Shown: piece after piece, positions 5,181-62,963 of the stretch
Numbering within the stretch: the first letter of the stretch is position 1
Layout of the letters: the number at the start of each line of letters is the position of its first letter
Virus record (IMG/VR): IMGVR_UViG_3300042988_001550
Direction: 5' to 3' (one strand)
Source of the DNA: a virus
DNA: 64,000 nucleotides
Notes under the pieces: generated by a model
What the model saw: only the letters and a program-made list of their open reading frames with translations
Told to the model about the DNA's origin: nothing
The model's database searches: none
Made by a program: the position numbers and the translations under genes

Positions 5181-5181
5181 T

Positions 5182-14589: not shown

Positions 14590-14613
14590 TCCTATAAGAC
14601 CGAACACGTAGCC

Positions 14614-15216: not shown

Positions 15217-15234
15217 TCAGAACAGTAGAGGACT

Positions 15235-21460: not shown

Positions 21461-21537
21461 TGGTGCGCCAGGTAGGACTCGAACCTACAACTTACCGGGT
21501 AGAAACCGGTGTGTCTATCCAATTGACTTACTGGCGC
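21461..21537 (-). tRNA. tRNA-Arg(UCU)
   Basis: GCGCCAG/CTGGCGC, ACCGG/CCGGT with loop TTTCTAC, GTAGG-TTCGAGT-CCTAC, and an encoded CCA. The D-stem is weak. Confidence 0.7.
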
Positions 21538-21539
21538 GG

Positions 21540-21956: not shown

Positions 21957-21985
21957 GTGTAAAGCATAGCGACACCAGCAGATTA

Positions 21986-22021
21986 GGCAACCGTTGCTCT
22001 ATCCAGCTGAGCTACGGGGGC
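21986..22021 (-). pseudogene. 5' fragment of an Arg-type tRNA (acceptor, D-arm and half the anticodon arm)
   Basis: GCCCCCG-TA-GCTC-AGCTGGATA-GAGC-A-ACGGT-TGCC is a perfect tRNA 5' half. The matching 3' end sits at 21431..21452, with no anticodon 3' stem, variable loop or T-stem 5' strand between them. Confidence 0.55.
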
Positions 22022-22029
22022 ATTGTTAG

Positions 22030-22812
22030 TTAATGATCCGCAAACTGCGGATCATTATTTTGAAGACCTGCCTTACGCAGTTCTTTGGTGTTCAGTTGCT
22101 TACCAGGAGTGACATCGCGCTCTTCTCTGAAGAAGCGGTGCATTCTGGTATAGTGCCAATTTCCGTCCGCATCCTGCATATAAGACGAGTAATCGACCTC
22201 ATCGTATGCAACCGTTCTGGTCACGATGACAGCTCGGAACCAGCAACCGTTGCGGTACAGGAGATCGAGGCACTTGTTGTCTCTATAGGCCACGTCCGCG
22301 TCATCGAGCCGGATCTGACCTTTGTACTGATCTCCGCGCCACTTCATGTATGTACGGCGACTCTTCTGAAGGATACCACAAGCATCCACATAGAATCGCT
22401 CACCGGACACGTAGTACCACCTTGCCATCTCTTTGACGAGCAGGTGGCGGTAATCAGTTTCCACGCGACCCGTGAGGTAATGGAGCAGCCAACGACCTGA
22501 CGGCGATCTATAGTCGTACAGCCGACGCAGCTCGGAGTAAACCGCATCCCACGGTCTTCCAACATGGGCCTGGAGAAACTTCTCCAAAGGAGATATGCTC
22601 CAGAAAGGGCTCCGGCGGTCCAAGCGACCGTCAACGAAGATCATCGTTCGCTCCGGCAGGCTATCCTCGGGCAGGTGCTGGAGGTTACCGCGATTGATTC
22701 TACCACGGAACTTCGACCGCGACCTTCTACCCCTCGAACGACCGCGTTCGAGGATATCCTTATCAAGTCTCTTTGTGTCTCGCATCTGGCTTTCGTGTTT
22801 AGTGGTAAACAA
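22030..22812 (-). CDS. hypothetical protein, about 251 to 260 aa
   Basis: Long ORF. The track uses a TTG start; an ATG start at 22785 is an alternative. Confidence 0.55.
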   Translation of the reverse strand: MFTTKHESQMRDTKRLDKDILERGRSRGRRSRSKFRGRINRGNLQHLPEDSLPERTMIFVDGRLDRRSPFWSISPLEKFLQAHVGRPWDAVYSELRRLYDYRSPSGRWLLHYLTGRVETDYRHLLVKEMARWYYVSGERFYVDACGILQKSRRTYMKWRGDQYKGQIRLDDADVAYRDNKCLDLLYRNGCWFRAVIVTRTVAYDEVDYSSYMQDADGNWHYTRMHRFFREERDVTPGKQLNTKELRKAGLQNNDPQFADH

Positions 22813-22846
22813 AAGAGGTAGCCAAACAATCTGCAGACTACATAAG

Positions 22847-22855
22847 TCTTATGAC
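22847..22855 (+). promoter_or_regulatory. CTTATGACA motif copy (palindromic form CATAAG-T-CTTATG)
   Basis: Exact 9-mer between two minus-strand genes. Confidence 0.4.
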
Positions 22856-22895
22856 ACATATTGTTGGTGGTTGGCGGGGGAACCCGCCAACCACG

Positions 22896-23387
22896 TCACT
22901 TATTGTGCGGGTTTACTTTTGACTTCCAGCGTTTGCCTTGAGAGACTCTGCCGAAATCGATGCAAACCATCTTGCCGTTTATCGTACCGAGGTTGGCGTG
23001 GTGCAGGTCCCATGTATTCAGTTTAGCTTCCCGGATCTTATCCAGAAACGCCTCTGTGGGCGCACGTCTACCAACATTCTGAGCAACCTGCGTGAAGTAG
23101 CCGTAGACCTTGGTCCGATTAAGACCATCAAATCCACGCTCACCGTACGGTACAAAAAGGTGGAAGCGTTGCCCGACTGCTGGAGCTAGCTTCTTCTTGT
23201 GACCGTAGTATTGCCCATAGAACGAATGATCCCGCTCCTGCTTAGTTGGGAACAGTTTGATACCTGTCGAGTCGCTAATCCGGATGAACCCACTCTCCAC
23301 TCCAGTGGACATCTTGGATCCCCCCAATAGCGAGGACATTATCAGCAATTTGTTGTGCTTCGTCATCCGAAGCGATGCGATTGTCAT
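22896..23387 (-). CDS. small protein-kinase-like protein
   Basis: DLHHANLG (catalytic-loop-like HxDxxxxN) and VCIDFG (DFG). The N-terminus is probably shorter than the track shows, because it overlaps the upstream gene. Confidence 0.4.
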   Translation of the reverse strand: MTIASLRMTKHNKLLIMSSLLGGSKMSTGVESGFIRISDSTGIKLFPTKQERDHSFYGQYYGHKKKLAPAVGQRFHLFVPYGERGFDGLNRTKVYGYFTQVAQNVGRRAPTEAFLDKIREAKLNTWDLHHANLGTINGKMVCIDFGRVSQGKRWKSKVNPHNK

Positions 23388-23823
23388 TGACTTGTGTTGG
23401 CCAGTAGTAAGGAATGTCTGGTCCTTCTGTCCAACCGAATCTTCCGTAATATAGCGGGTCCTTCCTTAACAGGTTAGACCTATGTGATGCGTGAAAACGC
23501 TCGTTCCTGAACCAAGGAGGACACTCCATTAGTATTGGAGCTGGGGTCAGTGGCATCCTATTACGGCGACCACGCCTCTCCCATTCCCGTATGGACTCAT
23601 TGTAGTAGACGGCCAACATACGCTCATAACCTTGCCACATCAGCCTGGCTGGATGGTTTACCCATCCACGGCGAGAACGAGGTACGGTGCCGTCTACTTT
23701 CGGTAAATCTACGCCCAAACTGCGAAGAAGCTGTCCGGCCTCGATTCTCTGCTTACCTAGCCGCCTATTGTCTAGACACTGCAATGACAGGCGAATATCT
23801 GGGTAAGGGAGAAAGGTCTGCAC
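23275..23823 (-). CDS. hypothetical protein, 182 aa (weak resemblance to pyrimidine-dimer glycosylase N-termini)
   Basis: MQTFLPYPD...LDNRRLGKQRIEAGQLL has a T4 EndoV-like pattern. This is low-confidence recall. Confidence 0.5.
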   Translation of the reverse strand: MQTFLPYPDIRLSLQCLDNRRLGKQRIEAGQLLRSLGVDLPKVDGTVPRSRRGWVNHPARLMWQGYERMLAVYYNESIREWERRGRRNRMPLTPAPILMECPPWFRNERFHASHRSNLLRKDPLYYGRFGWTEGPDIPYYWPTQVNDNRIASDDEAQQIADNVLAIGGIQDVHWSGEWVHPD

Positions 23824-24677
23824 TACTTGTTGGGCATCGCCATGTTGAGCATGAGGCCGCTACCGTCGGTCATGAAGGTCGGCAGCCTGCCATCCCATTT
23901 CTGGAGGTACTCGTACGGGATGAGTGCCGGATTGTTTTCCAGAGCTCGCGCACGCTGCTCCAGTTCGAAGGAACGGGCCTCAGCAATCGTTCTGATTGAG
24001 ATAGCTTCCTGCTCCGCAGACTGCCGCTTCGCCGTAGCGATTTCGACCATCTGTTGGGCTTCAAGACGCTGTCTCTCCAGAATCGCGCGCTGCTGCTCGA
24101 CTTCCTGCTCAGCCTTCTTCTTCTGAACGATGGCGATCTGAACAGCCTCGGGAGGCGTCAGGTCTTTCGACAATACGCGCTCGATAGTAGCATGCTTACC
24201 CGCGTACTCTTGAAGCTGGTTCATGATGGCCAGCTGGAAAGCCTCTTGGCCCTCCTGCTTGAAGAAGTCTTCGCTAGCCTTGATTGTCTTGCTAGCCTCT
24301 CTACATGACGAGCGGAATCCCTGGACGATGACCTTGTCCTTCAGCTCCTGCATCCCACCAATCTCCAGGATGATCTCGTGGACATTAGCTAGGTTCGGGC
24401 GCCACTGGACAGAGAAATCACCGACGATTCTCTGCTGATCCTGAGCGAACAGCGACACGTCCTCCAGATCTTCACTTTGGAGGCGCCCGTCGAATTCAAC
24501 CCAGTCATAGAACGGGTTGGTCCACGCCGGTTCCGTCAGCGTTTCCTTCTGGAGTTCACCGAACAGCTTGGCCACCTTGACGTGACCAGGCTCGACGGTC
24601 TCCCACGCGTTGGCAGCAAACGCGATGCTGATGACCGCCACAATGGCTGCCACAACTAGTCCTACGATCTTTCCCAT
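23823..24677 (-). CDS. SPFH/band-7 (stomatin/prohibitin/HflC-like) membrane protein
   Basis: N-terminal TM segment, then an SPFH core (GHVKVAKLFGELQKETLTEPAWTNPFYDWVEFD...RIVGDFSVQWRP) and a long Glu/Gln-rich coiled coil. Confidence 0.7.
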   Translation of the reverse strand: MGKIVGLVVAAIVAVISIAFAANAWETVEPGHVKVAKLFGELQKETLTEPAWTNPFYDWVEFDGRLQSEDLEDVSLFAQDQQRIVGDFSVQWRPNLANVHEIILEIGGMQELKDKVIVQGFRSSCREASKTIKASEDFFKQEGQEAFQLAIMNQLQEYAGKHATIERVLSKDLTPPEAVQIAIVQKKKAEQEVEQQRAILERQRLEAQQMVEIATAKRQSAEQEAISIRTIAEARSFELEQRARALENNPALIPYEYLQKWDGRLPTFMTDGSGLMLNMAMPNK

Positions 24678-24868
24678 TAGAAGAAGTCCCCTTCTTTGAT
24701 CAGGTCAATGACCTGGTCTGGCGTCATCTTACTCTGATAACGCATCTGTTGCGTCAACTTGGAAATCATCGAACGCTTGAGGCTGGACTTTTCCAGCTCT
24801 CTGCCGATCATGATACCGACGAACACGCCGATACCAGCCACGGCAAGAATCATCAAAAACCAGAGCAT
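24677..24868 (-). CDS. small membrane protein, possible NfeD-like partner of the SPFH protein
   Basis: 63 aa with the N-terminal TM segment MLWFLMILAVAGIGVFVGIMIG. Its stop abuts the start of the SPFH gene. Confidence 0.45.
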   Translation of the reverse strand: MLWFLMILAVAGIGVFVGIMIGRELEKSSLKRSMISKLTQQMRYQSKMTPDQVIDLIKEGDFF

Positions 24869-24898
24869 TGCTCTCCTTGTTGGTTACTACTTTGAAGG

Positions 24899-24975
24899 TG
24901 GTCGGGGCGGCCGGATTCCAACCGACGACCTGCTGGACCCAAACCAGCCGCTCTAGCAAACTGAGCTACGCCCCG
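24899..24975 (-). tRNA. tRNA-Pro(UGG)
   Basis: CGGGGCG/CGCCCCG, GCTC/GAGC, GCTGG/CCAGC with loop TTTGGGT, GTCGG-TTGGAAT-CCGGC, and an encoded CCA. Confidence 0.75.
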
Positions 24976-24979
24976 AAGA

Positions 24980-25064
24980 TGGTAGGGATGACGGGAGTCG
25001 AACCCGTACGCCTTTCGACACAGCGGCCTAAACGCTGCGCGTCTGCCAATTCCGCCACATCCCC
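24980..25064 (-). tRNA. tRNA-Leu(UAG), long variable arm
   Basis: GGGGATG/CATCCCT (G.U), CAGCG/CGCTG with loop TTTAGGC, a 13-nt variable arm, ACGGG-TTCGACT-CCCGT, and CCA. Confidence 0.7.
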
Positions 25065-25070
25065 ACCCGA

Positions 25071-25460
25071 TTAATTGACTGTGTTGAAGTTTAGCACGGA
25101 GAACGGTATCTGCTCAGTATCACCGTACCCAGCCATCACCAGATCCGAATACATCACCGACGATCGGTATGTGTTCATTGAGTGGATGATGATATGAGGT
25201 ACACGCTCCTTGCAGATATCGCTAACATTCGCCACCATGTACCGAACCACCTCAGTACCTGAATTGACATCAGGCGGTTCGACACACTCTTGGTTCTCTC
25301 CCAGATCGTGGTCCAGGAATATTAGATCGAAGGTGTGCGCTTTCAGTAAGGACTTGGCCTCCTCAGCCGTCTTGCACATCTTCAGATCAGTCCCAACCAG
25401 ACAGCGGGTGAATTTCGCTATCCGGTTGGGATTGTCCTCTACGATGAGGATACGTGTCAT
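25071..25460 (-). CDS. stand-alone response-regulator receiver (CheY-like) domain protein
   Basis: The internal start MTRILIVEDNPNRIAKF gives a receiver fold, with an acidic pocket DLIFLDHDLG. The track's long N-terminal extension overlaps the upstream gene and is rejected. Confidence 0.6.
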   Translation of the reverse strand: MTRILIVEDNPNRIAKFTRCLVGTDLKMCKTAEEAKSLLKAHTFDLIFLDHDLGENQECVEPPDVNSGTEVVRYMVANVSDICKERVPHIIIHSMNTYRSSVMYSDLVMAGYGDTEQIPFSVLNFNTVN

Positions 25461-26089
25461 ACCTGGTAGGTCGGCTGCCACTTCACCGTGGTCTGGCCAT
25501 TCTCCACAACCGGCTTCGGAGCCCACACGTGTCGGGTCTTTGCCGGGCGAGGCCAGGTGGCCATGATGCCGCGAGGCTGAACAGTCAGATCGCGCAGACG
25601 GTAGAACGCCGCTGTCGGATCGAACTTCTCGTTCACAGCTTCCACGATCACGGTGTAGCCACCAGGAGTCGTCGAGACATTGCCGAAGCCCACGATGCGC
25701 ACGTGGTTGTACAGCTTGGCGTTCTGACCAAGAATGGTCTCCAAGCACCACGGACGATTCAGGAACCGCTCGATGCAGGTCAGGCGACCCTGGCGACGGT
25801 TGTACCCGTCACGCTTGGTCACGGTGACAGTTTCCATCTGCTTCGTCTTGCGGTTCTTGCGCGTCACCCGGACCTCGTACTCCTCTTCGAGGCAACGAGA
25901 GACTTCCATCGCCGGCTGCTTTGACGGGTAGTTGTCCGGCCAGAACGAGCAGATCGTGGCCCCACCGTGGAACGACGGAGTCAGCCGCCCACGGATGTAT
26001 TCCTCCGGACGGAGGTGGATCGTCGACATACCCGCCACAAGGCGCGGGAATTTGTCCTCCGAGCCTTTCACAAACACTGAGATTTCCAT
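25457..26089 (-). CDS. hypothetical protein, 210 aa
   Basis: ATGA-coupled to the downstream receiver gene. A CTTATGACA motif and a GATC hairpin lie upstream. Confidence 0.55.
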   Translation of the reverse strand: MEISVFVKGSEDKFPRLVAGMSTIHLRPEEYIRGRLTPSFHGGATICSFWPDNYPSKQPAMEVSRCLEEEYEVRVTRKNRKTKQMETVTVTKRDGYNRRQGRLTCIERFLNRPWCLETILGQNAKLYNHVRIVGFGNVSTTPGGYTVIVEAVNEKFDPTAAFYRLRDLTVQPRGIMATWPRPAKTRHVWAPKPVVENGQTTVKWQPTYQV

Positions 26090-26134
26090 GTTCGGTTACA
26101 GTACGCTAGTACTGCCCAAAAGAGTTACAAAAAA

Positions 26135-26173
26135 CAAGTGATCCAATACTAGAGGATCATTTCTCTTATGACA
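26135..26173 (+). promoter_or_regulatory. Composite element GATCCAAT-N6-GGATCA-TTTCTCTTATGACA
   Basis: Exact 9-mer with an adjacent 6-bp GATCCA/TGGATC hairpin. A near-identical block lies at 60203..60257. Confidence 0.45.
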
Positions 26174-26203
26174 TAAAAACAAGGACTTGTGGTCCTTGTT
26201 AGG

Positions 26204-26294
26204 TGGTGCTGACGGTAAGAGTCGAACTTACCGGGACCGGTTAGGTATCATCGGATTTACAGTCCGACCTCGCGCCCTACGAGACTACGTCAGC
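26204..26294 (-). tRNA. tRNA-Tyr(GUA), type II
   Basis: GCTGACG/CGTCAGC, TCGGA/TCCGA with loop CTGTAAA, a long variable arm, GTAAG-TTCGACT-CTTAC, and CCA. Confidence 0.7.
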
Positions 26295-26296
26295 TT

Positions 26297-26372
26297 TGGT
26301 GGGGATAGCGGGATTCGAACCCGCACTTAACGGATTTTAAGTCCGCTGCCTCGGCCGTTGGGCTATATCCCC
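26297..26372 (-). tRNA. tRNA with anticodon UAA (Leu by anticodon) but a short 5-nt variable arm
   Basis: A clean 76-nt type I cloverleaf: GGGGATA/TATCCCC, GCGGA/TCCGT with loop CTTAAAA, GCGGG-TTCGAAT-CCCGC, A73 and CCA. Confidence 0.6.
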
Positions 26373-26378
26373 ATTGGC

Positions 26379-26861
26379 CTATTTGAGCTCTGGACGCAAC
26401 TCACCGTTCGGTGTTAGGAAGTTACCGAAGGCGAAATACTTCCTGGCGCGTTCTCTGAACGATTCCGCAAAGGTTCCTTCAGCCGCCTCTTCGTCTGGCA
26501 GGTTGAGCCAATACTGCCATCTCTCTCGAATGTGCTCGTTTGCTTCTTTGAGAGGCCAGTAGCACGATTGCGCCGAGTGCCACGTACCTGCATCATCTAT
26601 GATGCAGACATTCGTTAAGACCCATGTCTTACGTCCGACGATGTTCCAGACGTACTCAATCTCTTTGATTTGACGATTGAAGCCGTCGCATACCATCACA
26701 TAATCACCGACGCGCAACTTGATGTAAGGTTCTAGCGCCGTCAAATCATGTGAATACTTCTTGGCGATGCGTCTACGACCCTTGTAAGTCCTTCCAGGGA
26801 TCTGTACGTCAGGACCGTCGGCAACTTCGAGGATGACCGTGATATCTTCGCGGTACTTCAT
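26379..26861 (-). CDS. hypothetical protein, 160 aa
   Basis: ORF nested between two tRNA pairs. Confidence 0.55.
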   Translation of the reverse strand: MKYREDITVILEVADGPDVQIPGRTYKGRRRIAKKYSHDLTALEPYIKLRVGDYVMVCDGFNRQIKEIEYVWNIVGRKTWVLTNVCIIDDAGTWHSAQSCYWPLKEANEHIRERWQYWLNLPDEEAAEGTFAESFRERARKYFAFGNFLTPNGELRPELK

Positions 26862-26874
26862 GTTTCTTGGTTGT

Positions 26875-26952
26875 TGGTGGGCCTTGAGGGGATCGAACCC
26901 TCGAACCTCCTCGATGTAAACGAGGCGCTCTAACCAGCTGAGCTAAAGGCCC
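26875..26952 (-). tRNA. tRNA-Val(UAC)
   Basis: GGGCCTT/AAGGCCC, GCTC/GAGC, CCTCG/CGAGG with loop TTTACAT, CGAGG-GTTCGAT-CCCTC, and CCA. Confidence 0.8.
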
Positions 26953-26960
26953 GTAAAAGG

Positions 26961-27052
26961 TGGCGGAAGGTGAGGGACTCGAACCCACAAGACCTTGTTG
27001 AAGGGTCCGCTGGTTTTCAAAACCAGTTGCTTGCCAATTCACACAACCTTCC
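26961..27052 (-). tRNA. tRNA-Ser(UGA), type II
   Basis: GGAAGGT/ACCTTCC, CTGGT/ACCAG with loop TTTGAAA, a 21-nt variable hairpin, discriminator G73, and CCA. Confidence 0.7.
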
Positions 27053-53420: not shown

Positions 53421-53962
53421 GCTTTATTGTAAGCCAAACCATCGGTACTAGAAAGCTGTCTGGATTCTACCGAAAGGTAGATACAGAGGGAGCTGCTTCC
53501 AGATTCCAAAGTCAAGAGGCCGGTTATCAAGAGGTATTCGAGGTAGCTGATCTTACAGTGGAGAGTGCTACCAGTTACCTGATAACACTAAGCTCGTCGT
53601 ACATCGTCGGCGCACACCAGCTTATAGTGGCGCTGCGCTTTACCGACCAGCTTGGGTACCTTGTTCTTCCCCCTAGAGACCAAGACACAACCGGCCTGTC
53701 CTATGAGGAAGTCGACTCTCTAACGGTCCGCATCTACGGTGTCCTCGGTGGAGCAAATGACTTTACGCACGCGATGGTAGTTATCCCGCACACCGCGACG
53801 CCAGCCGTAAACCGTGAGAAGGTTGTCGTGCGTGACCAAGGCGATAACACAGCGATTGAGTTAGAAGGCCACGGAGACGGTGTCATGGTCCGCTCACCTA
53901 ACGGCAGCAAGTGGCTTATCCGCGTCGATGATAGCGGAAACCTCGTAACAGAGTCGAGGTAA
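53417..53962 (+). CDS. hypothetical protein, 181 aa
   Basis: ATGA coupling; last gene of the + block. Confidence 0.55.
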   Translation: MSFIVSQTIGTRKLSGFYRKVDTEGAASRFQSQEAGYQEVFEVADLTVESATSYLITLSSSYIVGAHQLIVALRFTDQLGYLVLPPRDQDTTGLSYEEVDSLTVRIYGVLGGANDFTHAMVVIPHTATPAVNREKVVVRDQGDNTAIELEGHGDGVMVRSPNGSKWLIRVDDSGNLVTESR

Positions 53963-53982
53963 AAAAGGGGGACAAGCCCCCG
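53961..53982 (-). terminator. rho-independent terminator for the minus-strand operon
   Basis: GGGGG-acaag-CCCCC hairpin followed, on the minus strand, by TTTTTT. Confidence 0.6.
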
Positions 53983-53986
53983 ACGA

Positions 53987-54349
53987 TCACCCGAAGCCGT
54001 TTCCTCTGGTGAGGGTCTGCGGCTCCGGATCTGGCACGCTGTTGTCAAACAGCTGGACGATATTACCGATCACGCCAATAGCGTGGTGTACGGTAATGTT
54101 GTTCTGGATGAGATCCAGTTGAACACCGCAGAGTGCCGTGAGAAGAGAAGCAATCTCTGCAATGATGCTGGCGCTGTCCTTGCTGAGGATAGACATACGA
54201 CCGTTGTTGCTTGTCAGCATACGACCGATATCTGACAGCGGGCTGTGTATCACGATCGACGCATCCTTGACGAGAGTTGAACAGTTCAACTGCACGGAGA
54301 AATGCTGTCCGGTGATATTGTAGGTGAGGTTTTTGGGGGGAGCTTCCAC
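53987..54349 (-). CDS. hypothetical protein, 120 aa
   Basis: Last gene of the minus-strand pilin-like operon. Confidence 0.5.
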   Translation of the reverse strand: MEAPPKNLTYNITGQHFSVQLNCSTLVKDASIVIHSPLSDIGRMLTSNNGRMSILSKDSASIIAEIASLLTALCGVQLDLIQNNITVHHAIGVIGNIVQLFDNSVPDPEPQTLTRGNGFG

Positions 54350-54624
54350 TAGCTCTTTACCTTGCTAAGGATGATCTGCTTTGTGGTGTGAAGGATGGTA
54401 GCGGCTAGCAGGTGAGCCGCTACGGTCACAAATACGGTTCTCATCTCAGCTTTGGCCTTCGCATCCAGCTCCCTAGTTAGCTGCTTAGCAGCCTCTATCG
54501 CTGTTAGCGCGTTTCGCTGTAGATGATTTTGCTTGGACAACTCAAAAAGAGCGTTGTAGTCGGTCACCGTAAAGGTTTCTGTTAGGTGGAATGCGGGGGA
54601 TCCAAGCAGCTTCGCGAGCCGCAA
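54349..54624 (-). CDS. hypothetical protein with C-terminal hydrophobic segment, 91 aa
   Basis: Ends in TVFVTVAAHLLAATILHT. Its stop overlaps the next start. Confidence 0.45.
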   Translation of the reverse strand: MRLAKLLGSPAFHLTETFTVTDYNALFELSKQNHLQRNALTAIEAAKQLTRELDAKAKAEMRTVFVTVAAHLLAATILHTTKQIILSKVKS

Positions 54625-54945
54625 GGATCCCCCTCTGGTGCCACGCGGACACCTCTCTGCTTACCAGATGTCACCCTGGTAAGTGTTCAATCAAGCGGCT
54701 TTCACCGCTTGTGTGGGAATCTCCCACAAGGCGTAACCACTTGCGTGGCTGGAGAGTAGCCTGTTATCTCTCTCCACTATTCTTATGCCACATCCACCAT
54801 CACTTCTTGCCGAAGATGACAGTGAAGCACCAGAGGTAGATGCAGAGATGCCATCGTTTTACCGACAGCACTGCACCTAACTCTTTGTGTGTCCAGTCGA
54901 CACTGGCGAAGAACGCTAGGCGCCAGAAGCGCCAGTAGACGTAGT

Positions 54946-55188
54946 TCACTGGTGAAGCGGGCACCGCCACGTCCGCTGCGCGTTCTCGATGAAGGACGCG
55001 AAGGCCGGATCGTTTGCGTCCCCACGGTACACAGACGTTTCTTCGCAGAACGTCCGGCCACATTTCAGCGTGACCGCCAGCTGCTGGCCCGACCTCTTCG
55101 GTACCGGTGCCAGCAGGATGGCCGCAGTGGCAACGACAAACAGGCCGATGACGAAGATCGACCCGTACACGAGGATCTTTTGGATCAC
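54946..55188 (-). CDS. small membrane protein, 80 aa
   Basis: TM segment ILVYGSIFVIGLFVVATAAILLA. Overlaps the stop of the pilin-like gene. Confidence 0.45.
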   Translation of the reverse strand: MIQKILVYGSIFVIGLFVVATAAILLAPVPKRSGQQLAVTLKCGRTFCEETSVYRGDANDPAFASFIENAQRTWRCPLHQ

Positions 55189-55703
55189 GGAAATTCCTCC
55201 AGTTGGCGGCGGAACCTGTGTCCCACCGCTTCGGTTGCGGTTTCGAACGTTCCCCAGTCGTCGAGCCGGATTCGCTCAGCCAACCACTCGACATCCCCAG
55301 GAAGGACGTCGAGCTTGTGCTTCACGACCCATTCGACAACCTGACGACGAACAATCTCGTCGTTGATTACCTGATACTCCACGTTGCTGTAGAGCTGGTC
55401 ACGGCGGAAATTGGCTTCGAGATCAGTGATGGCCTGTTTCTGTAGGGCCACCAGCTGTTCAAGACGCTCGACTTCTGTACTGAGGTCTTTGGCCTCTGGT
55501 GCAGGGTCACTCGGCCGGCTCCGAACGGAGAAGCCGATTGATGCTCCAACGCTGGAGCGTTCTGGTGCTTCCACCACAGGGATCACCGCCGCTTCTCCAG
55601 GATGAGGAGAGGCAATCCAGTAGATGAAGCCGAAGATCCCTCCGACCACGGCCATGAAGGCGACCATGATCACGAGTTCAATCAGAGTGAATCCCTTCTT
55701 CAT
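55185..55703 (-). CDS. type IV pilin/pseudopilin-like protein (class III signal peptide)
   Basis: The internal start MKKG-FTLIELVIMVAFMAVVGG matches the prepilin cleavage and N-methylation motif (G|FTLIEL with Glu at +5). The track's 5' extension overlaps the upstream gene and is rejected. Confidence 0.6.
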   Translation of the reverse strand: MKKGFTLIELVIMVAFMAVVGGIFGFIYWIASPHPGEAAVIPVVEAPERSSVGASIGFSVRSRPSDPAPEAKDLSTEVERLEQLVALQKQAITDLEANFRRDQLYSNVEYQVINDEIVRRQVVEWVVKHKLDVLPGDVEWLAERIRLDDWGTFETATEAVGHRFRRQLEEFP

Positions 55704-56173
55704 GAGTTCACCGTGACATTGCTGCCGGGAGGAATCGTGGTGGTATAGCCACCAGCCGTGTACGAGACGTTGTCTCCACCCGGCGGAGCGTCGTTGTAGA
55801 TCGTCACCGAGGTGCCGCTGCCGTTGAATTCGACAGTACCGCCGGTTGCGTGGATCTCGCCCTTGCAGCCAGTGGAGACCTTGACGGTATCGCCGGCCTC
55901 GACGCCCTTCACCTCGAATTTCGCGTTGTTGCCGAACGAGACCTCCGAGTTGGTGGTGCAGAAGCAGTCGACGTGGTCGACCTTGCCGCAAGGAGCGGCG
56001 GTCTTCGGCGTGACCTTGGCCTTGCCACGGGAGTCCTTGCGGTTCTCCACCTGGACATCCTTGTTGTCATGCTTCTCGCCGGGCTTGACTTCCTGGTACC
56101 CCGCTCCCGTGCTCTGCGCAAAAGCAAAGATCGAGAGCACGAACAGCGCCACAATTGCTGCGATGTGTTTCAT
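55700..56173 (-). CDS. secreted Cys-containing Gly/Thr-rich protein with signal peptide
   Basis: MKHIAAIVALFVLSIFAFA|QS signal peptide and six Cys. Stop and start overlap the pilin-like gene (ATGA). AAAGGA ribosome-binding site; motif plus terminator upstream. Confidence 0.55.
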   Translation of the reverse strand: MKHIAAIVALFVLSIFAFAQSTGAGYQEVKPGEKHDNKDVQVENRKDSRGKAKVTPKTAAPCGKVDHVDCFCTTNSEVSFGNNAKFEVKGVEAGDTVKVSTGCKGEIHATGGTVEFNGSGTSVTIYNDAPPGGDNVSYTAGGYTTTIPPGSNVTVNS

Positions 56174-56202
56174 GTGTAGAGGGTCCTTTATCCCTCATAG
56201 TA

Positions 56203-56211
56203 CTTATGACT
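56203..56211 (+). promoter_or_regulatory. CTTATGACT variant motif
   Basis: Minus strand reads terminator, TCTTTTT, AGTCATAAGTAC, 22 nt, AAAGGA, ATG 56173. Confidence 0.4.
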
Positions 56212-56243
56212 AAAAAGAGGGTACTAGTTGTTACTAGTACCCC
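56211..56243 (-). terminator. rho-independent terminator
   Basis: Minus strand reads GGGTACTAGT-aacaa-CTAGTACCC then TCTTTTT. Confidence 0.6.
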
Positions 56244-56247
56244 CAGA

Positions 56248-57536: not shown

Positions 57537-57541
57537 TCTAA

Positions 57542-57570
57542 GATGGAGCCGACGATGGGATTTGAACCCA
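57542..57570 (-). pseudogene. tRNA 3'-end fragment (T-arm, acceptor 3' strand, CCA) with no matching 5' half
   Basis: ATGGG-TTCAAAT-CCCAT-CGTCGGC-T-CCA. I could not find the complementary acceptor strand within 120 nt. Confidence 0.4.
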
Positions 57571-58375
57571 TAACCCCTTCATTACCTGCCCACTTTGAAC
57601 TTTCGTTCGACTACATTACACTAGTCTAGTGGGATGGACTTTCTCTTCACCCTCGTCTTTACGTTAGGGTGCGCCGTGTAAAGTCTCTACACTTGCCCGG
57701 TTCTTTTAGGAACCTGCTAGCTCGGGATTGCCATTTTAAAGGTTTCCCCGACTTAGCGGCGTCCACTTTATAGGTTTCCCTAGAAAGGTCCGTAATCATG
57801 ACTTACTGCTGCGCTGAGTGTCAAACAACGTTCTCTCGAAAGGACAAAGCACGTTCTGTAAACGCATTCTGTTCTCGATCTTGTGCCGCCAGCTATAACA
57901 ACAGGAAGAAACCTAAGAGGGCGCGAAGCCGTCGGGATTCTAGTTGTGTTAGTTGCGGAAAAAGTACCCATAACCGTAGATTCTGCGATTTGGTGTGCTT
58001 CCACAGACTTAGGGCCGATACAAAGATCGCCAACTGGTTGTCAGGCCACGAGACGCGCGTCACCTCTCATCGAAGAGACGCTATCCGCTCCTGGCTGTTG
58101 AAGGACCAGCTAGAGAAGTGTGCCTTGTGCGCCCAATCAGGAAATTGGAACGGCAAGCCACTGCTTTTTGTTTTGGACCATATCAATGGAGACCACACCG
58201 ATAACAGCAGAACCAATCTACGCCTTATCTGTCATAACTGTGACTCACAGTTACCTACGTACAAAGGCAGAAATCGCGGTTTCGGGCGATACATCAGAAG
58301 ACAACGATACGCAGACGGTAAATCGTTCTAACAAATGAAGAGCTCTGCCAATTGAGCTACATCGGCAATTGAAAG

Positions 58376-58452
58376 TGGTGGCGGGGGTGAGATTCGAACT
58401 CACGACCTTCAGCTTATGAGGCTGACGAGCTACCGGACTGCTCTACCCCGAC
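58376..58452 (-). tRNA. tRNA-Met(CAU) (elongator-type, or Ile2 if lysidine-modified)
   Basis: GTCGGGG/CCCCGCC (one mismatch), GAGC/GCTC, TCAGC/GCTGA with loop CTCATAA, GTGAG-TTCGAAT-CTCAC, and CCA. Confidence 0.65.
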
Positions 58453-58455
58453 ACC

Positions 58456-58531
58456 TGGTCCACCCACTAGGATTTGAACCTAGGACCTTCCGCGTATCAG
58501 ACGGATGCTCTACCAACTGAGCTATGGGTGG
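58456..58531 (-). tRNA. tRNA-Ile(GAU)
   Basis: CCACCCA/TGGGTGG, GCTC/GAGC, loop CTGATAC, CTAGG-TTCAAAT-CCTAG, and CCA. Confidence 0.75.
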
Positions 58532-58533
58532 AT

Positions 58534-58609
58534 TGGTGGAGGCTAAGGGACTTGAACCCTTGGCCTATAGCTTGCAAAGCTATTGCTCTACCAGCTGAGC
58601 TAAGCCCCC
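58534..58609 (-). tRNA. tRNA-Ala(UGC)
   Basis: Acceptor GGGGGCT/AGCCTCC with the G3.U70 Ala identity pair; ATAGC/GCTAT with loop TTTGCAA; CCA. Confidence 0.8.
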
Positions 58610-58610
58610 A

Positions 58611-58688
58611 CTATTCTTTTGTTCTGTTGATTCGGAGGTCGATGGATGCGAGCGCCAGTACGACTAGAAAGACGATGACGTATTTCAT
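58611..58688 (-). CDS. 25-aa hydrophobic micro-ORF inside the tRNA array (MKYVIVFLVVLALASIDLRINRTKE)
   Basis: ATG preceded by AAAGGAA. The ORF exactly fills the tRNA-Asn/tRNA-Ala spacer. Confidence 0.3.
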   Translation of the reverse strand: MKYVIVFLVVLALASIDLRINRTKE

Positions 58689-58707
58689 GCATTCCTTTCT
58701 TGTTGGA

Positions 58708-58782
58708 TGGCTGTGGGGGCAGGACTTGAACCTACAACTGGCGCATTAACAGTGCGCTGCTCTACCATTGAGCTACCCCACA
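58708..58782 (-). tRNA. tRNA-Asn(GUU)
   Basis: TGTGGGG/CCCCACA, GCGCA/TGCGC with loop CTGTTAA, G73, and CCA. Confidence 0.75.
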
Positions 58783-58790
58783 GTGAGAGA

Positions 58791-58867
58791 TGGCGGAACT
58801 GACGGGACTTGAACCCGCGATCTTCGCCGTGACAGGGCGACGCTTTAGCCAACTAAGCTACAGTTCC
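58791..58867 (-). tRNA. tRNA-Asp(GUC)
   Basis: GGAACTG/CAGTTCC, TCGCC/GGCGA with loop CTGTCAC, G73, and CCA. Confidence 0.75.
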
Positions 58868-58990
58868 GAAAAAGAACTACCGTACTAACAGACATGTCTG
58901 CCAATTCCATCACTGCGTCCAGGTGAGACTCGAACTCACACGCAGCCGTCGCCGGTACTGCATCTGTGCTCCGGTAGTTCCTGAAAGGTG
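58868..58990 (-). other. degenerate tRNA-like element (intact T-arm, Leu/Ser-like D-loop remnant, partial copy of the tRNA-Asp 5' end)
   Basis: GTGAG-TTCGAGT-CTCAC flanked by CTGCGT/ACGCAG. Downstream lies TG-GAATTGGCAGAC. The pieces do not fold into a canonical cloverleaf in this order. Confidence 0.3.
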
Positions 58991-59064
58991 GGTGACCGGT
59001 GGGACTCGAACCCACAACCCCCAGGACCACAACCTAGTGTTCTAACCAATTGAACTACGGCCAC
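58991..59064 (-). tRNA. tRNA-His(GUG)
   Basis: GTGGCCG/CGGTCAC (G.U), CTAGG/CCTGG with loop TTGTGGT, C73, CCA not encoded. Confidence 0.65.
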
Positions 59065-59249
59065 ATCACAAGAAAAGGCGAGCAAGGTGTCCTGTAAGGG
59101 TTGTTTTACAAAGGTAACCCTCACAGAGCGGCTCGCCAGGACCCAAGTCTGCTAAACGTGGGTGTAACGATGTAAGCAAATTCGCCTAGGAACGATGGAT
59201 ATCTGCGAGATCGCGGAAGGTAACGTTCATAGTTCGGCTTACATCTATA

Positions 59250-59325
59250 TGGTGATCCCAGAGAGATTCGAACTCTCGTTGTCGGGTTGAAAACCCGGTG
59301 TCCTGACCGACTAGACGATGGGACC
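59250..59325 (-). tRNA. tRNA-Glu(UUC)
   Basis: GGTCCCA/TGGGATC, CCGGG/CCCGA with loop TTTTCAA, GAGAG-TTCGAAT-CTCTC, and CCA. Confidence 0.65.
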
Positions 59326-59446: not shown

Positions 59447-59792
59447 TGGTGGACCTGGTCGGAGTCGAACCGACGTGTTTGAACTGTCGTTAGTATTCTT
59501 CTACACGCTTGTCCGATTTTTGTTCCACTGTCCAGGCATTAACCGGCAACTATCCCGGCAGTGGTTCCGCAGTATACGCCCTAGGTCGAAGCGGGTCTCT
59601 CCAGGGTGTCCTAATAGTTGCAGCCACTCCCTTATTAGGAATCAAGGGTGGCTGGGATTAGCGGAGTCTAGGCCGCCATCGCGAGCTGAGGTTCAGCATT
59701 TTAGTTTTCCCAAGAAGGATTAACGAGCTTACTTGAGATGCTCGGCGTGCTTCACTACATTTGACTGAACAAATCGAAACCAGTTCAGGCCC
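59447..59792 (-). ncRNA. ssrA: tmRNA (ssrA-like), 346 nt, tag ORF 59668..59697
   Basis: 5' GGGCCTG pairs with 3' CAGGTCC-A-CCA and includes the G3.U70 Ala identity pair. The T-arm is GTCGG-TTCGACT-CCGAC. GUGAAGCACGCCGAGCA parallels E. coli GGUGCAUGCCGAGG. The tag frame is aaaactaaaat-GCT GAA CCT CAG CTC GCG ATG GCG GCC TAG, giving (A)AEPQLAMAA. Confidence 0.7.
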
Positions 59793-60060: not shown

Positions 60061-60173
60061 TGGTCGGCCCGGAGGGACTCGAACCCCCAACCCTCCGCAT
60101 ATCAGACGGCGCCCAGTTGTTACACCAGGGGCGGATCATAAATCCACTGCTCTACCATTGAGACTACGGGCCG
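60061..60173 (-). tRNA. tRNA-like gene with anticodon UAU (Ile-type) and a ~41-nt insertion between the anticodon stem and T-arm
   Basis: CGGCCCG/CGGGCCG, GTGGA/TCCGC with loop TTTATGA, GGGGG-TTCGAGT-CCCTC, A73, and CCA. It is 113 nt long. Confidence 0.4.
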
Positions 60174-61376: not shown

Positions 61377-62963
61377 TTAGTCCTTGGCGAAATTGCTGAT
61401 GAGAGCCGGAGTCTCGGTATCGTACCCGACGATGTCCAGCTGGTGCGGGTCTTGAGGATCCGCGATGGTGAAGCCGGTAGCCGTCATGCCGACGACGATG
61501 GCCTTGGCGTTGGGGCGGTTGCGTTCCTTGCGGAATCGATTCAGCGCCTGGTACGGCTGCACGCCGCCGTTCGTCTCATTGTCAGTCATGATGACGAAGC
61601 AATCCACGTCACGCTTCTGGGAGGTCGCGTACGAGTAGGCCGCCGAGCAGTCGGTTGATCCGAAGTTGTTCATGACAACCTTGTGCATAGCAGTCGCCAG
61701 GGTATCGTTTGCATGGATACCCAGGTCCTTGATCGTGCTGGCGAAGCCAACGATCTCGTGGTAGGGCTCACGTCGAGCCAAAACCATTGCCAGGCACGCG
61801 GTACCCATCGCCGGGGTGAACCCAGGGAAGACGGAGCCCGCCGAGCCGTACCCACCACCAGCCATCGACCCCGAAACGTCAAGCGCCAGCAAGAAGTTCT
61901 TGTTGGACGGTTCGACGTTGTTGAAGGCGTGGTAGAACAGCGCTTCCGTGACATCGGTGATGGTGCTCACCGGGGTCCAAGACAGGCTGCCCTTGATGCC
62001 ATGACCCTGACGGTACGTGTAGTAGGCGGCCAGCGCCTGCATCGGATGGATACGCGACTTTTTGATCGCTTCCTTATCCGACAGCTTCTGCTGGACCAAC
62101 TTCGTAGCCGAGCTGAGAGGCTTCAGCAAGCCGTTCGCCGTCATGCGCGCCAGGTTGCGGGTTAGCGCATTCAGCGGCATGTTCGGCAGCAAGGCTTCCC
62201 AGATCTCCGGATTCCCCAGCTGCTCCGTCGGAATCATTTCCCAGGTGATCGACTTGTTGCGTCGAATCACAGCGAGGATACCATTCTTGTCCGCCTTGCT
62301 GATTTCCTCCAGATCCGCGACGATCTGAGGAATACCTTCAGCAATCACATTCTTGCACGCCCACTGGAACAGTGCCTGCTGTTCCTTGAGAAGCGGCTTC
62401 GGGTGAGCCATGCGCAGCACGTCACGATGCGTCCACCCGTTGCGGTTGCGGTACTTGGCCATCTGATAGGCGAGGTCGTCGCCCTTCTTGTTGATGTACC
62501 AATCACCAACCGTCGTGCAGAGCATACGCCCCCAGCCGCGCATGTTCTGGACCTCTTCCGTGAACTGGAACAGGTGGGTACCCGTCCGGATCACCTGATA
62601 GAAGACGGCCTTGGCAGCCACCTTCGTCGCGAGGTCCTTGCTGCTCATCGCCATTGCCAAAGCAAAAATTGCGGGGTCTTGCTTCGGCGCACGCCCACCG
62701 ACGCTGATGTCGCGGATGACACCAACCGTCTTGGGACCGTCAGCATTGAGGCAGCGGGTCACCACCTCAGCATTGTCCACAGTCAGCTTGCGCTCGGACA
62801 CGTAGTACGTGCCGCCGCTCGACCCGAGAATCAGAAATCGTTCCAACCGCTTCCAGTCGTCAGTCTGGAACACATACCCACCGGTGTTGTTCAGTACCTG
62901 GTCTGAACGTGTCTTCTCGTGCACCGGTGCAGGAGTGTTCAGGATCTTGCCGTAGTTCTTCAC
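61377..62963 (-). CDS. rsr: Ro60/Rsr ortholog (TROVE domain plus C-terminal vWA/MIDAS)
   Basis: N-terminus NNTGGYVFQTDDWKRLERFLILGSSGGTYYVSERKLTVDNAEVV matches Ro60. The C-terminus has LALDVSGSM...TDNETNG (MIDAS). GTG start follows an AGGAGGG ribosome-binding site. Confidence 0.8.
   Translation of the reverse strand: MKNYGKILNTPAPVHEKTRSDQVLNNTGGYVFQTDDWKRLERFLILGSSGGTYYVSERKLTVDNAEVVTRCLNADGPKTVGVIRDISVGGRAPKQDPAIFALAMAMSSKDLATKVAAKAVFYQVIRTGTHLFQFTEEVQNMRGWGRMLCTTVGDWYINKKGDDLAYQMAKYRNRNGWTHRDVLRMAHPKPLLKEQQALFQWACKNVIAEGIPQIVADLEEISKADKNGILAVIRRNKSITWEMIPTEQLGNPEIWEALLPNMPLNALTRNLARMTANGLLKPLSSATKLVQQKLSDKEAIKKSRIHPMQALAAYYTYRQGHGIKGSLSWTPVSTITDVTEALFYHAFNNVEPSNKNFLLALDVSGSMAGGGYGSAGSVFPGFTPAMGTACLAMVLARREPYHEIVGFASTIKDLGIHANDTLATAMHKVVMNNFGSTDCSAAYSYATSQKRDVDCFVIMTDNETNGGVQPYQALNRFRKERNRPNAKAIVVGMTATGFTIADPQDPHQLDIVGYDTETPALISNFAKD

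What the first reader, a model, noticed from the sequence alone, without database searches (positions are those of the whole stretch)
53987..56173. Phage operon encoding a type IV pilin/pseudopilin-like protein, a secreted Cys-rich protein and small membrane proteins
ORF 55185..55703 begins MKKG|FTLIELVIMVAF..., a textbook class III (prepilin) signal with the +5 Glu. No prepilin peptidase is encoded nearby, so it would rely on the host PilD or GspO. It overlaps by ATGA with an upstream secreted, Gly/Thr/Cys-rich 157-aa protein (signal peptide AFA|QS). Two single-pass membrane ORFs and two small ORFs follow before the terminator at 53961..53982. The first gene has its own motif-plus-terminator promoter module. 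Pilin-like genes are not standard phage cargo. Plausible roles are blocking host type IV pili or type II secretion to exclude superinfection by pilus-dependent phages, or incorporation as a minor pilin that modifies host adhesion.
Basis: partly seen in the sequence, partly recalled or inferred. Interest (0 to 1): 0.7.

Follow-up and report, generated by a model that had tools for sequence, protein, structure and literature searches.

The report
Phage envelope protein with pilin-type anchor
An uncultured large phage encodes a fast-evolving membrane-anchored protein whose anchor copies the signal bacteria put on pilus subunits, but the rest of it is not a pilin, so it more likely exploits the host's pilin-processing machinery than builds a pilus.

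Summary
A structured RNA, 72-aa and 120-aa ORFs and a terminator follow.

The K-G-F-T-L-[IV]-E motif is not chance: 0 of 200 shuffles contain it. It is kept in all four close orthologues through synonymous codon changes, while the adjacent membrane segment diverges to 35% identity.

The protein is nevertheless not a pilin:
- The helix stops after about 25 residues at a proline-rich disordered linker.
- Three distant homologues in syntenic phage loci have ordinary membrane anchors without the motif.
- Curated HMM cut-offs for the prepilin motif are not reached.

The conserved core is a secreted beta-helix protein plus a bitopic protein facing outward from the cytoplasmic membrane. I read it as a new phage envelope module whose anchor, in one sub-lineage, became a prepilin-peptidase substrate mimic. 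Its function, whether exclusion or interference with type IV filament machines, is inferred only. The host is unknown.

The parts
56217..56244 (-). Intrinsic terminator hairpin (12 bp stem plus T-run) that ends the upstream 289-aa gene and precedes the module
   Evidence: About 95% conserved in L001.
56201..56211 (-). Promoter-like motif AGTCATAAGTA (core GTCATAAG at 56203-56210) immediately after the terminator T-run
   Evidence: GTCATAAG occurs 10 times, all on the minus strand, against 1.7 expected. The longer form TGTCATAAGA(T) occurs 9 times against 0.86 expected. Conserved in L001.
55700..56173 (-). 157-aa secreted protein. It has a Sec signal peptide (AFA|Q), a Lys-rich low-confidence N-terminal half, and a small beta-helix/solenoid C-terminal domain (residues ~85-157).
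55185..55703 (-). 172-aa bitopic protein. It has a prepilin-type signal-anchor, a Pro-rich disordered linker (36-64), a coiled-coil helix (71-105), and a novel all-helical head (108-163).
   Evidence: Family of 7 sequences.
55677..55697 (-). Codons for K3-G4-F5-T6-L7-I8-E9, the class III signal core (Gly-1, Phe+1, Glu+5)
   Evidence: Invariant K-G-F-T-L-[IV]-E in window, L002, L003 and L001. All four Thr codons and three Leu codons are used. The motif occurs in 0 of 200 shuffles. Pfam N_methyl scores are 14.2, 17.7, 16.7 and 21.3 bits in the four orthologues.
54946..55188 (-). 80-aa protein with an N-terminal TM segment and a C-terminal CX4C...CX2H cluster. Its GTG start overlaps the 172-aa stop (GTGA).
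   Evidence: Orthologues in L004 (58%), L001 and L006.
54800..54949 (-). 49-aa aromatic/hydrophobic ORF (MNYVYWRFWRLAFF...), GTGA-coupled to the 80-aa gene, very strongly conserved
   Evidence: 95-96% nucleotide identity to L001 and L004, against 50-69% for neighbouring genes. Substitutions are mostly synonymous or conservative. A distant homologue lies in L006.
54775..54792 (-). Second promoter-like motif (TGTGGCATAAGAATAGTG) just after the 49-aa stop codon
   Evidence: Conserved in L001 and L004. Resembles the minus-strand motif family.
54593..54683 (-). Conserved structured RNA (three hairpins) about 25 nt upstream of the 72-aa ORF
   Evidence: 5 of 31 pairs show compensatory double changes and none are broken in 3 sequences. 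The whole 54590-54960 stretch folds with z = -8.2. The reading frame is not conserved across loci.
54349..54567 (-). 72-aa protein (GTG start by comparison; the longest ORF would be 91 aa from TTG 54624) with a C-terminal TM tail-anchor
53987..54349 (-). 120-aa protein without a confident TM segment. Last gene of the unit; its start overlaps the previous stop (TAGTG).
   Evidence: orthologues in L001 and L004.
53967..53981 (-). Terminator hairpin GGGGGCTTGTCCCCC plus T-run, convergent with the tail-fibre operon that ends at 53962

Best explanation
The 172-aa protein is not a pilus subunit. It belongs to a very small, fast-evolving phage family of bitopic envelope proteins. These have the N-terminus in the cytoplasm, one TM anchor, a flexible Pro-rich linker, an oligomerising coiled coil and a novel helical head outside the cytoplasmic membrane. 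Each is always co-encoded, and usually translationally coupled, with a secreted small beta-helix protein.

In the sub-lineage that includes this window, the anchor has taken the exact form of a prepilin (class III) signal: basic leader, Gly-1, Phe+1, Thr-Leu-[Ile/Val], Glu+5.

The most likely mechanism has four steps.
1. The protein inserts like any signal-anchor protein.
2. The host prepilin peptidase cleaves after Gly4 and probably N-methylates Phe5.
3. The processed protein stays tethered by a pilin-like, Glu5-bearing helix.
4. Its head, together with the secreted partner, acts on the host envelope. The action is most plausibly interference with, or docking onto, the host type IV filament (T4P or T2SS) assembly platform, as a host-takeover or superinfection-exclusion function.

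Shown: gene structure, motif conservation under purifying selection, the non-pilin predicted architecture, the conserved two-gene core, and the absence of a phage peptidase in the window.

Inferred: cleavage by PilD, topology, partner binding, and the envelope or T4F-directed function.
For: The motif is real and selected.
- It occurs once in six frames and in 0 of 200 shuffles.
- K-G-F-T-L-[IV]-E is invariant in four orthologues, with synonymous variation at Phe, Thr, Leu and Glu codons.
- The following 23 TM residues are only 35% identical between P0001 and P0002, whose C-terminal 100 residues are 94% identical.
- In P0003 the motif is retained even though it lies 70 residues in, behind an extra TM segment.
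- A buried Glu at +5 is costly unless needed. Established pilin biology assigns it to docking and charge neutralisation in filaments (PMC10191384).

The protein is not a pilin.
- The AF2 model has helix 7-31, disorder at 36-64, then helices only, with pLDDT above 90 for residues ~90-160.
- Prolines fall at mature positions 29, 31, 38 and 43.

The core module is conserved.
- A secreted protein plus a TM protein are adjacent in six loci from related phages (window and L001, L003, L004, L005, L006); L002 keeps only the end of the upstream gene. The tail-fibre, HNH and Ro60 neighbours are shared by some of these loci and not by L005.
- Coiled-coil-only sequence hits fall on residues ~60-130.

Other support.
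- No ORF with 4 or more TM segments exists in the window.
- The pair is far more diverged between the window and L004 (36% and 55% aa identity) than the flanking genes (87-98%, and 94% for the tail-fibre protein). This fits a host-interaction arms race.
Against: - The curated HMM cut-offs for the prepilin motif are not reached by the window protein.
- The TM segment after Glu5 does not resemble the conserved pilin alpha1N consensus.
- Three of seven family members (P0007, P0008, P0009) lack the motif altogether, so the family's core function cannot depend on prepilin peptidase or on T4F machines.
- The host is unknown, so the presence of a prepilin peptidase is assumed.
- No experimental or homology-based functional annotation exists for any gene of the module.
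Confidence: 0.5

Rival explanations
1. It is a genuine, divergent minor pilin or pseudopilin that is polymerised into host type IV pili or the T2SS pseudopilus. It would change adhesion or act as a tip or cap subunit.
For: A complete residue-level class III signal with Glu+5 is conserved in four orthologues. Purely helical pilin heads exist (ComGC, PMC7212644). Viruses can encode real pilins (archaeal provirus SNJ2, PMC12426801). A cultured lytic phage carries an annotated PilE-like ORF.
Against: There is no ~50-residue alpha1: the helix ends at residue 31 and is followed by a Pro-rich, variable, disordered 35-40-residue linker. No head packs on an alpha1C, and no pilin appears in the fold searches. 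The distant homologues have non-pilin anchors. HMM scores are below threshold.
Confidence: 0.1
2. The module is part of the lysis machinery. Either the 172-aa protein is an i-spanin-like or T4 T-type holin-like bitopic protein and the secreted protein is its periplasmic partner (antiholin or outer partner), or the small membrane ORFs act as holins.
For: The architecture (N-terminal TM, periplasmic coiled coil, C-terminal head) resembles i-spanins and class III holins. Several small membrane ORFs are clustered here (80, 49 and 72 aa). As I recall, gene t follows the tail-fibre genes in T4, and this module also lies next to tail-fibre genes.
Confidence: 0.15
3. The GFTLIE motif has no link to prepilin peptidase. 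It is just one of several interchangeable TM anchors of an envelope protein, and its resemblance to a class III signal is convergent or a relic of recombination with a pilin gene.
For: The anchors in the family are clearly exchangeable: 1 TM, 2 TM, or the motif form. HMM scores are below threshold. The hydrophobic core does not match the pilin alpha1N consensus.
Against: Seven consecutive residues stay invariant through synonymous change while the adjacent TM segment is 35% identical. A charged Glu in the membrane is retained in all four orthologues. The motif is kept in P0003 although it is no longer N-terminal.
Confidence: 0.2

Closest known systems
Type IV pilins and T2SS pseudopilins (class III signal peptide; Pfam PF07963 N_methyl, TIGR02532)
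   Same: Short basic leader ending in Gly, then Phe+1, Thr-Leu-Ile, Glu+5 and about 22 hydrophobic residues. The predicted topology is N-in/C-out. Processing would depend on a host A24 prepilin peptidase.
   Different: There is no ~50-residue alpha1 and no head packed on alpha1C. A disordered Pro-rich linker, a coiled coil and a novel helical domain follow the anchor instead. HMM scores are below the curated cut-offs. Distant homologues lack the motif. No T4F genes lie nearby.
Modular pilins (Streptococcus sanguinis PilB/PilC; PMC8179133, PMC10191384)
   Same: A pilin-type N-terminus carries a grafted, non-pilin functional module.
   Different: Modular pilins keep a complete pilin module between the signal and the grafted domain. 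Here the pilin module is missing entirely.
Virus-encoded type IV pilins of the archaeal provirus SNJ2 (PMC12426801)
   Same: A viral gene product carries a class III signal and relies on the host prepilin peptidase and secretion machinery.
   Different: The SNJ2 proteins are true pilins that assemble into filaments in a haloarchaeon. The present protein is bacterial-type in motif, non-pilin in fold, and encoded by a large tailed phage.
Acinetobacter phage vB_AbaM_Acibel004 gp97, annotated 'PilE-like protein' (KJ473422.1)
   Same: A small ORF in a lytic myovirus starts MKNKGFTLIELMIVVAIIGILA. This shows that prepilin-type N-termini do occur in tailed-phage genomes. Weak PHROG hits to the N-terminus point the same way.
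   Different: gp97 has the full canonical alpha1N consensus and a short Cys-containing tail. It shares nothing beyond the motif, and its function is also uncharacterised.
Two-component spanins (Rz/Rz1) and T4 holin T / antiholin RI
   Same: A bitopic inner-membrane protein with a periplasmic coiled coil or large periplasmic domain is paired with a small exported partner encoded next to it.
   Different: The partner is not a lipoprotein and the gene order is reversed. There is no structural or sequence similarity, and no endolysin or holin context was found.

Membership tests
Type IV pilin / pseudopilin | Class III signal at residue level: short basic leader ending in Gly, hydrophobic +1, Glu at +5, about 20 hydrophobic residues | tested here: met
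   MKKG|FTLIE followed by 22 hydrophobic residues. It is the only such site in six frames and occurs in 0 of 200 shuffles. It is conserved in 4 orthologues.
Type IV pilin / pseudopilin | Match to the curated N-terminal methylation/cleavage models above their cut-offs (PF07963 GA 21.2; TIGR02532 cut-off 16.3) | tested here: not met
   The window protein scores 14.2 and 12.6 bits. Orthologues score 17.7, 16.7 and 21.3 bits; only the L003 fragment reaches the cut-off. A real pilin, P0011, scores 36.2.
Type IV pilin / pseudopilin | Extended N-terminal alpha1 helix of ~50 residues, the universal structural feature of pilins (PMC7212644) | tested here: not met
   The predicted helix covers residues 7-31 only. 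Residues 36-64 are disordered (pLDDT below 50), and Pro falls at mature positions 29, 31, 38 and 43. This rests on prediction.
Type IV pilin / pseudopilin | Globular head packed on alpha1C (beta-sheet, or helix-turn-helix in ComGC), with structural similarity to known pilins | tested here: not met
Type IV pilin / pseudopilin | Cleavage and N-methylation by a prepilin peptidase, and incorporation into a filament | not testable with these tools
   Needs expression with and without pilD, N-terminal mass spectrometry and pilus preparations.
Type IV pilin / pseudopilin | The signal is a family-wide character of the homologues | tested here: not met
   Four of seven members have it. P0007, P0008 and P0009 share the C-terminal domain (E 1e-20 to 3e-6) but have plain TM anchors.
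Two-component spanin (i-spanin + o-spanin) | i-spanin: N-terminal TM domain plus a periplasmic coiled-coil domain | tested here: met
   TM at 7-31 and a long helix at 71-105 that hits only leucine-zipper/coiled-coil chains. This is resemblance in architecture only.
Two-component spanin (i-spanin + o-spanin) | o-spanin: small outer-membrane lipoprotein with a lipobox Cys, encoded within, overlapping or after the i-spanin gene | tested here: not met
   The partner has an AFA|Q signal-peptidase-I site with no Cys at +1, and it lies upstream. The downstream 80-aa ORF has no lipobox.
Two-component spanin (i-spanin + o-spanin) | Lysis-cassette context (endolysin and holin adjacent) | tested here: not met
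   No muramidase, amidase or peptidase domain was found in the scanned window ORFs. The rest of the genome is not in the window.
T4-type holin T / antiholin RI | Structural similarity of the periplasmic domains to the solved T/RI structures | tested here: not met
Known anti-phage defence / exclusion protein families (PADLOC) | Significant match to a defence-system model | tested here: not met
   Only chance-level hits (E >= 0.01) for the module proteins.

The most novel reading that the evidence does not exclude
A tailed phage makes a 'Trojan pilin'. This would be a non-pilin effector carrying only the prepilin signal and a Glu5-bearing anchor. The host PilD would process it and the host type IV filament platform would then engage it. 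Its coiled-coil head and secreted beta-helix partner would jam, cap or re-purpose the pilus or the T2SS, for superinfection exclusion or host takeover. The hypervariable anchor would reflect an arms race with host machinery.
Probability: 0.2. Interest if true: 0.8.

Novelty: new variant of a known kind. Interest (0 to 1): 0.45.

Why it matters
Class III signals are treated as a near-diagnostic mark of type IV filament subunits. A phage protein family appears to have acquired only that signal, keeps it under purifying selection, and attaches it to a completely different, fast-evolving extracytoplasmic domain. That would show the prepilin peptidase and T4F pathway can be hijacked as a delivery or processing route by viruses. 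If the protein does engage the pilus or T2SS platform, it would be a new type of phage-encoded inhibitor or modifier of machines that serve as major phage receptors and virulence factors. It also cautions against annotating ORFs as pilins from the N-terminus alone.

Tried and rejected
Searches for relatives and function.
- blastn of the region against INPHARED phages gave no match.
- Pfam, PHROGs, NCBIfam and PADLOC on all module proteins gave nothing significant beyond the sub-threshold N_methyl hit.
- Profile searches of 5.8 billion and 1.84 billion proteins found only 7 family members in total and 3 direct hits for the 157-aa protein.
- Scans of IMG/VR, GTDB genomes and JGI metagenomes with the family profile found no relatives.
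- PDB sequence searches gave only coiled-coil noise.

Host identification failed.
- A Ro60 query against GTDB genomes found nothing.
- The nearest cultured phages are only distant relatives: Salmonella phage Arash and Pseudanabaena phage PA-SR01 (helicase 35-37% identity), and Vibrio phages.
- Synteny in Arash was uninformative.
- A related 193-kb IMG/VR contig (L007) lacks the module at the syntenic place.

- The afdb50 fold library was unavailable.

Hypotheses set aside.
- The lysis-cassette idea: no endolysin and no lipoprotein partner.
- Tight coupling to the receptor-binding protein: the tail-fibre protein is 94% identical in L004 while the 172-aa protein is only 36% identical.
- Reading the 54800-54949 conservation as purely RNA was rejected. 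Substitutions follow codon positions and a distant protein homologue exists.
Full report
**Context.** The window is part of a large, uncultured tailed phage.
- It carries a baseplate-J protein, a 3764-aa TIG-domain fibre protein, a sigma-factor-like gene, a surface-glycan gene cluster, an SNF2 helicase and a Ro60/TROVE gene.
- It also has 14 tRNAs, a tmRNA and a group I intron.
- It has no nucleotide match in INPHARED.
- Its closest cultured relatives are remote: Salmonella phage Arash, Pseudanabaena phage PA-SR01 and some Vibrio phages, at 25-37% protein identity.
- The same sequence is recorded on a 65-kb JGI contig. Related contigs reach 123 kb and 193 kb.
- The host could not be identified.

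**Check of the observation.**
- A 12-bp terminator (56217-56244) ends the upstream 289-aa gene.
- AGTCATAAGTA follows it directly. The core GTCATAAG occurs 10 times in the window, always on the minus strand, against 1.7 expected.
- The longer form of the motif precedes other minus-strand units, including tRNA, Ro60-region and repair genes.
- The genes then run as follows:
  - 157 aa (55700-56173), with signal peptide ...FAFA|QS;
  - 172 aa (55185-55703), with an ATGA overlap;
  - 80 aa (54946-55188), with a GTGA overlap.
- The terminator at 53967-53981 closes the unit, convergent with the tail-fibre operon.
- I add three parts:
  - a 49-aa ORF (54800-54949) that is GTGA-coupled to the 80-aa gene;
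  - a second promoter-like motif (54775-54792);
  - a structured RNA at 54593-54683.
- The following ORF most likely starts at GTG 54567 (72 aa), judged by its orthologues.

**Is the prepilin-like N-terminus more than chance?** Yes.
- The pattern [KR]..G-F-[ST]-L-[IV]-E followed by at least 10 hydrophobic residues occurs once in all six frames and in none of 200 shuffles.
- The family is tiny. Two database-wide searches found only the protein itself, P0002 (83% identity), P0003 (46%), a fragment on L003, and three distant members P0007, P0008 and P0009.
- In the four close members K-G-F-T-L-[IV]-E is invariant, although all four Thr codons, three Leu codons and both Phe and Glu codons are used.
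- The 23 TM residues after the motif are only 35% identical between P0001 and P0002, whose last 100 residues are 94% identical. The motif is therefore held by selection inside an otherwise hypervariable anchor.
- In P0003 (L001) there is no in-frame start next to the motif. The protein begins 70 residues earlier with an extra TM segment, and its GTG overlaps the upstream stop. The motif is kept there anyway. This fits an endoproteolytic site better than a mere N-terminal feature.

**Is it a pilin?** No, as far as prediction can tell.
- Pfam N_methyl and TIGR02532 match only residues 2-12 and score below their cut-offs (14.2 against 21.2; 12.6 against 16.3). Only the L003 fragment touches the Pfam cut-off. 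A true pilin picked up by the profile search scores 36.2.
- The AlphaFold2 model, built from six sequences, has mean pLDDT 76 and pLDDT above 90 over residues ~90-160.
- That model has a TM helix at 7-31, a disordered Pro-rich segment at 36-64, a 35-residue helix at 71-105 and a compact four-helix head at 108-163, with no beta-strand.
- That same paper states that a ~50-residue alpha1 is the universal feature of pilins. Here alpha1C is absent, and the sequence carries prolines at mature positions 29, 31, 38 and 43.
- PDB sequence searches hit only leucine zippers over the long helix.
- The three distant homologues share the C-terminal head (...LPGDVxWLAER..DW...). They carry one or two ordinary TM segments and no Gly/Phe/Glu motif.

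**The module.**
- In L001, L003, L004, L005 and L006 the TM protein is always preceded by an orthologue of the 157-aa protein. The overlap is 4 nt, except in L005 where there is a 7-nt gap.
- That partner protein has four features:
  - a conserved signal peptide;
  - a Lys-rich N-terminal half of low confidence;
  - a C-terminal domain (residues 85-157, pLDDT 76-91) of short regular strands;
- Its Cys cluster (PCGKxDHVDCxC) exists only in the close clade.
- The 80-aa TM/Cys protein and the 49-, 72- and 120-aa ORFs are shared with L001 and L004, and partly with L006, but not with L005. The two-gene pair is therefore the core.
- Between the window and L004 the pair is much more diverged (36% and 55% aa identity) than its neighbours. 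The 72-aa protein is 87% identical, the 49-aa protein 98% and the tail-fibre protein 94%. This is the pattern expected of proteins in a host-interaction arms race, and it argues against tight co-variation with the receptor-binding protein.
- No ORF in the window has 4 or more TM segments, so no A24 peptidase is encoded here.
- No endolysin domain was found among the scanned ORFs.

**Mechanism.**
- What is shown is the architecture: a bitopic protein with a prepilin-type anchor, linker, coiled coil and novel head, coupled to a secreted beta-helix protein.
- I infer that in this sub-lineage the host prepilin peptidase cleaves the protein after Gly4. In the L001 variant this would remove a 72-residue TM-containing leader.
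- I infer that the processed protein remains anchored by a Glu5-bearing helix, and that head and partner act in the envelope.
- Strict retention of Glu+5 points beyond simple cleavage towards interaction with the type IV filament platform. In pilins this residue serves docking and charge neutralisation rather than membrane insertion (PMC10191384). From my own knowledge of the P. aeruginosa PilA mutagenesis literature, it is also not needed for cleavage.
- Against this, the post-Glu5 segment does not resemble the pilin alpha1N consensus.
- Three family members also work without the motif. The family's basic activity must therefore be independent of that platform.
- I therefore give 0.5 to the layered explanation (a non-pilin envelope effector with a functional prepilin-peptidase-type anchor). 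I give about 0.2 to the stronger "Trojan pilin" reading, in which it jams or decorates T4P or T2SS.
- The rivals are a true minor pilin (0.1), a lysis function of spanin or holin type (0.15), and a functionally irrelevant motif (0.2).

**Comparison with what is known.**
- Viral genes with class III signals are documented for the archaeal provirus SNJ2, whose two pilins use the host PibD and form filaments (PMC12426801).
- Among tailed phages, Acinetobacter phage Acibel004 carries an uncharacterised ORF annotated PilE-like, with a canonical MKNKGFTLIELMIVVAIIGILA start. The describing paper does not discuss it.
- Weak PHROG hits to the N-terminus suggest further such ORFs.
- Modular pilins graft extra domains onto a complete pilin module (PMC8179133). 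The present protein lacks the pilin module altogether.
- My literature searches found no report of a tailed-phage protein that combines a prepilin signal with a non-pilin domain.

**Verdict.** The protein is a new, very rare family that I file as a new variant of a known kind: a class III signal on a non-pilin phage envelope protein. It is not a pilin. Interest is moderate (0.45). The selected motif in a hypervariable anchor is intriguing and directly testable, but function and host are unknown.

Noticed in passing
window 54800-54949 (-); L001 3724-3873; L004 3559-3708; L006 9248-9493: A 49-aa aromatic/hydrophobic ORF (MNYVYWRFWRLAFFASVDWTHKELGAVLSVKRWHLCIYLWCFTVIFGKK) is 95-96% identical at the nucleotide level between phages whose neighbouring genes are 50-69% identical. 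Substitutions are mostly synonymous or conservative. A 35%-identical homologue lies in L006. The reason for this extreme constraint, or a recent transfer, is unexplained.
   Followed up: partly
window 54593-54792 (-): A conserved non-coding stretch lies between the 49-aa and 72-aa ORFs. It holds a promoter-like motif (54775-54792) and hairpins. The 3' three-hairpin element (54593-54683) shows 5 compensatory pair changes and no broken pair among 3 sequences. The whole 54590-54960 stretch folds with z = -8.2. There is no Rfam match. In L001 about 70 nt of hairpins are deleted.
   Followed up: partly
window, minus strand: 8497, 22848, 26165, 27419, 30294, 56203, 57106, 57489, 60248, 63008: GTCATAAG, often as aTGTGTCATAAGAnn(A/T)TG, occurs 10 times and only on the minus strand (1.7 expected). 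Several copies lie directly after terminator hairpins and upstream of tRNA, Ro60-region and accessory genes. This is a phage promoter family of unknown timing and sigma dependence. The window also encodes a sigma-factor-like protein at 5167-5892.
   Followed up: partly
window 57540-57809 (-) and 57798-58331 (+): A group I intron (Rfam 57.6 bits, 57617-57809) is followed by a tRNA 3'-half-like sequence (GGGTTCAAATCCC...CCA, about 57540-57575). I could not find a convincing 5' exon. An HNH endonuclease ORF lies on the opposite strand overlapping the intron's 5' end, and it is conserved (77-78% aa identity to L001 and L004) in L001, L003 and L004; L006 has an HNH-domain ORF at the same place.
   Followed up: no
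window 61377-62963 (-) and 60064-60173 (-); L006 388-1962: The phage encodes a Ro60/TROVE plus vWA protein (Pfam E 1e-41 to 1e-47), as does the related 123-kb contig. Downstream, behind a GTCATAAG motif, lies a 110-nt tRNA-like RNA (Rfam tRNA 44 bits, anticodon loop UUUAUGA, about 40-nt extra arm) that ARAGORN does not call. It is a candidate Y-RNA/YrlA-like partner or an unusual tRNA-Ile(UAU).
   Followed up: partly
window 59447-59792 (-); tRNA clusters at 21461-27052 and 58376-59325: A phage-encoded one-piece tmRNA (101 bits) with the unusual tag AEPQLAMAA, plus 14 tRNA genes, all on the minus strand.
   Followed up: no
window 10197-16811 (+): A surface-glycan gene cluster: a GtrB-like glycosyltransferase, a second glycosyltransferase, an FkbM methyltransferase, a DegT-family aminotransferase fragment and GDP-mannose 4,6-dehydratase (E 5e-112). 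This suggests the phage remodels host surface polysaccharide.
   Followed up: no
L001 2739-3473 (P0003) and L004 2730-3317 (P0007): Two family members have an additional N-terminal TM segment. In P0003 it precedes the KKGFTLIE motif by a 40-residue basic loop. Prepilin-peptidase cleavage would then release a 72-residue membrane fragment, a leader far longer than any I know of.
   Followed up: partly
L009 2492-2815 (Acinetobacter phage vB_AbaM_Acibel004 gp97): A cultured lytic myovirus encodes a 107-aa ORF with a fully canonical prepilin N-terminus (MKNKGFTLIELMIVVAIIGILA) and a Cys-containing tail, annotated PilE-like. It is not discussed in the describing paper.
   Followed up: partly
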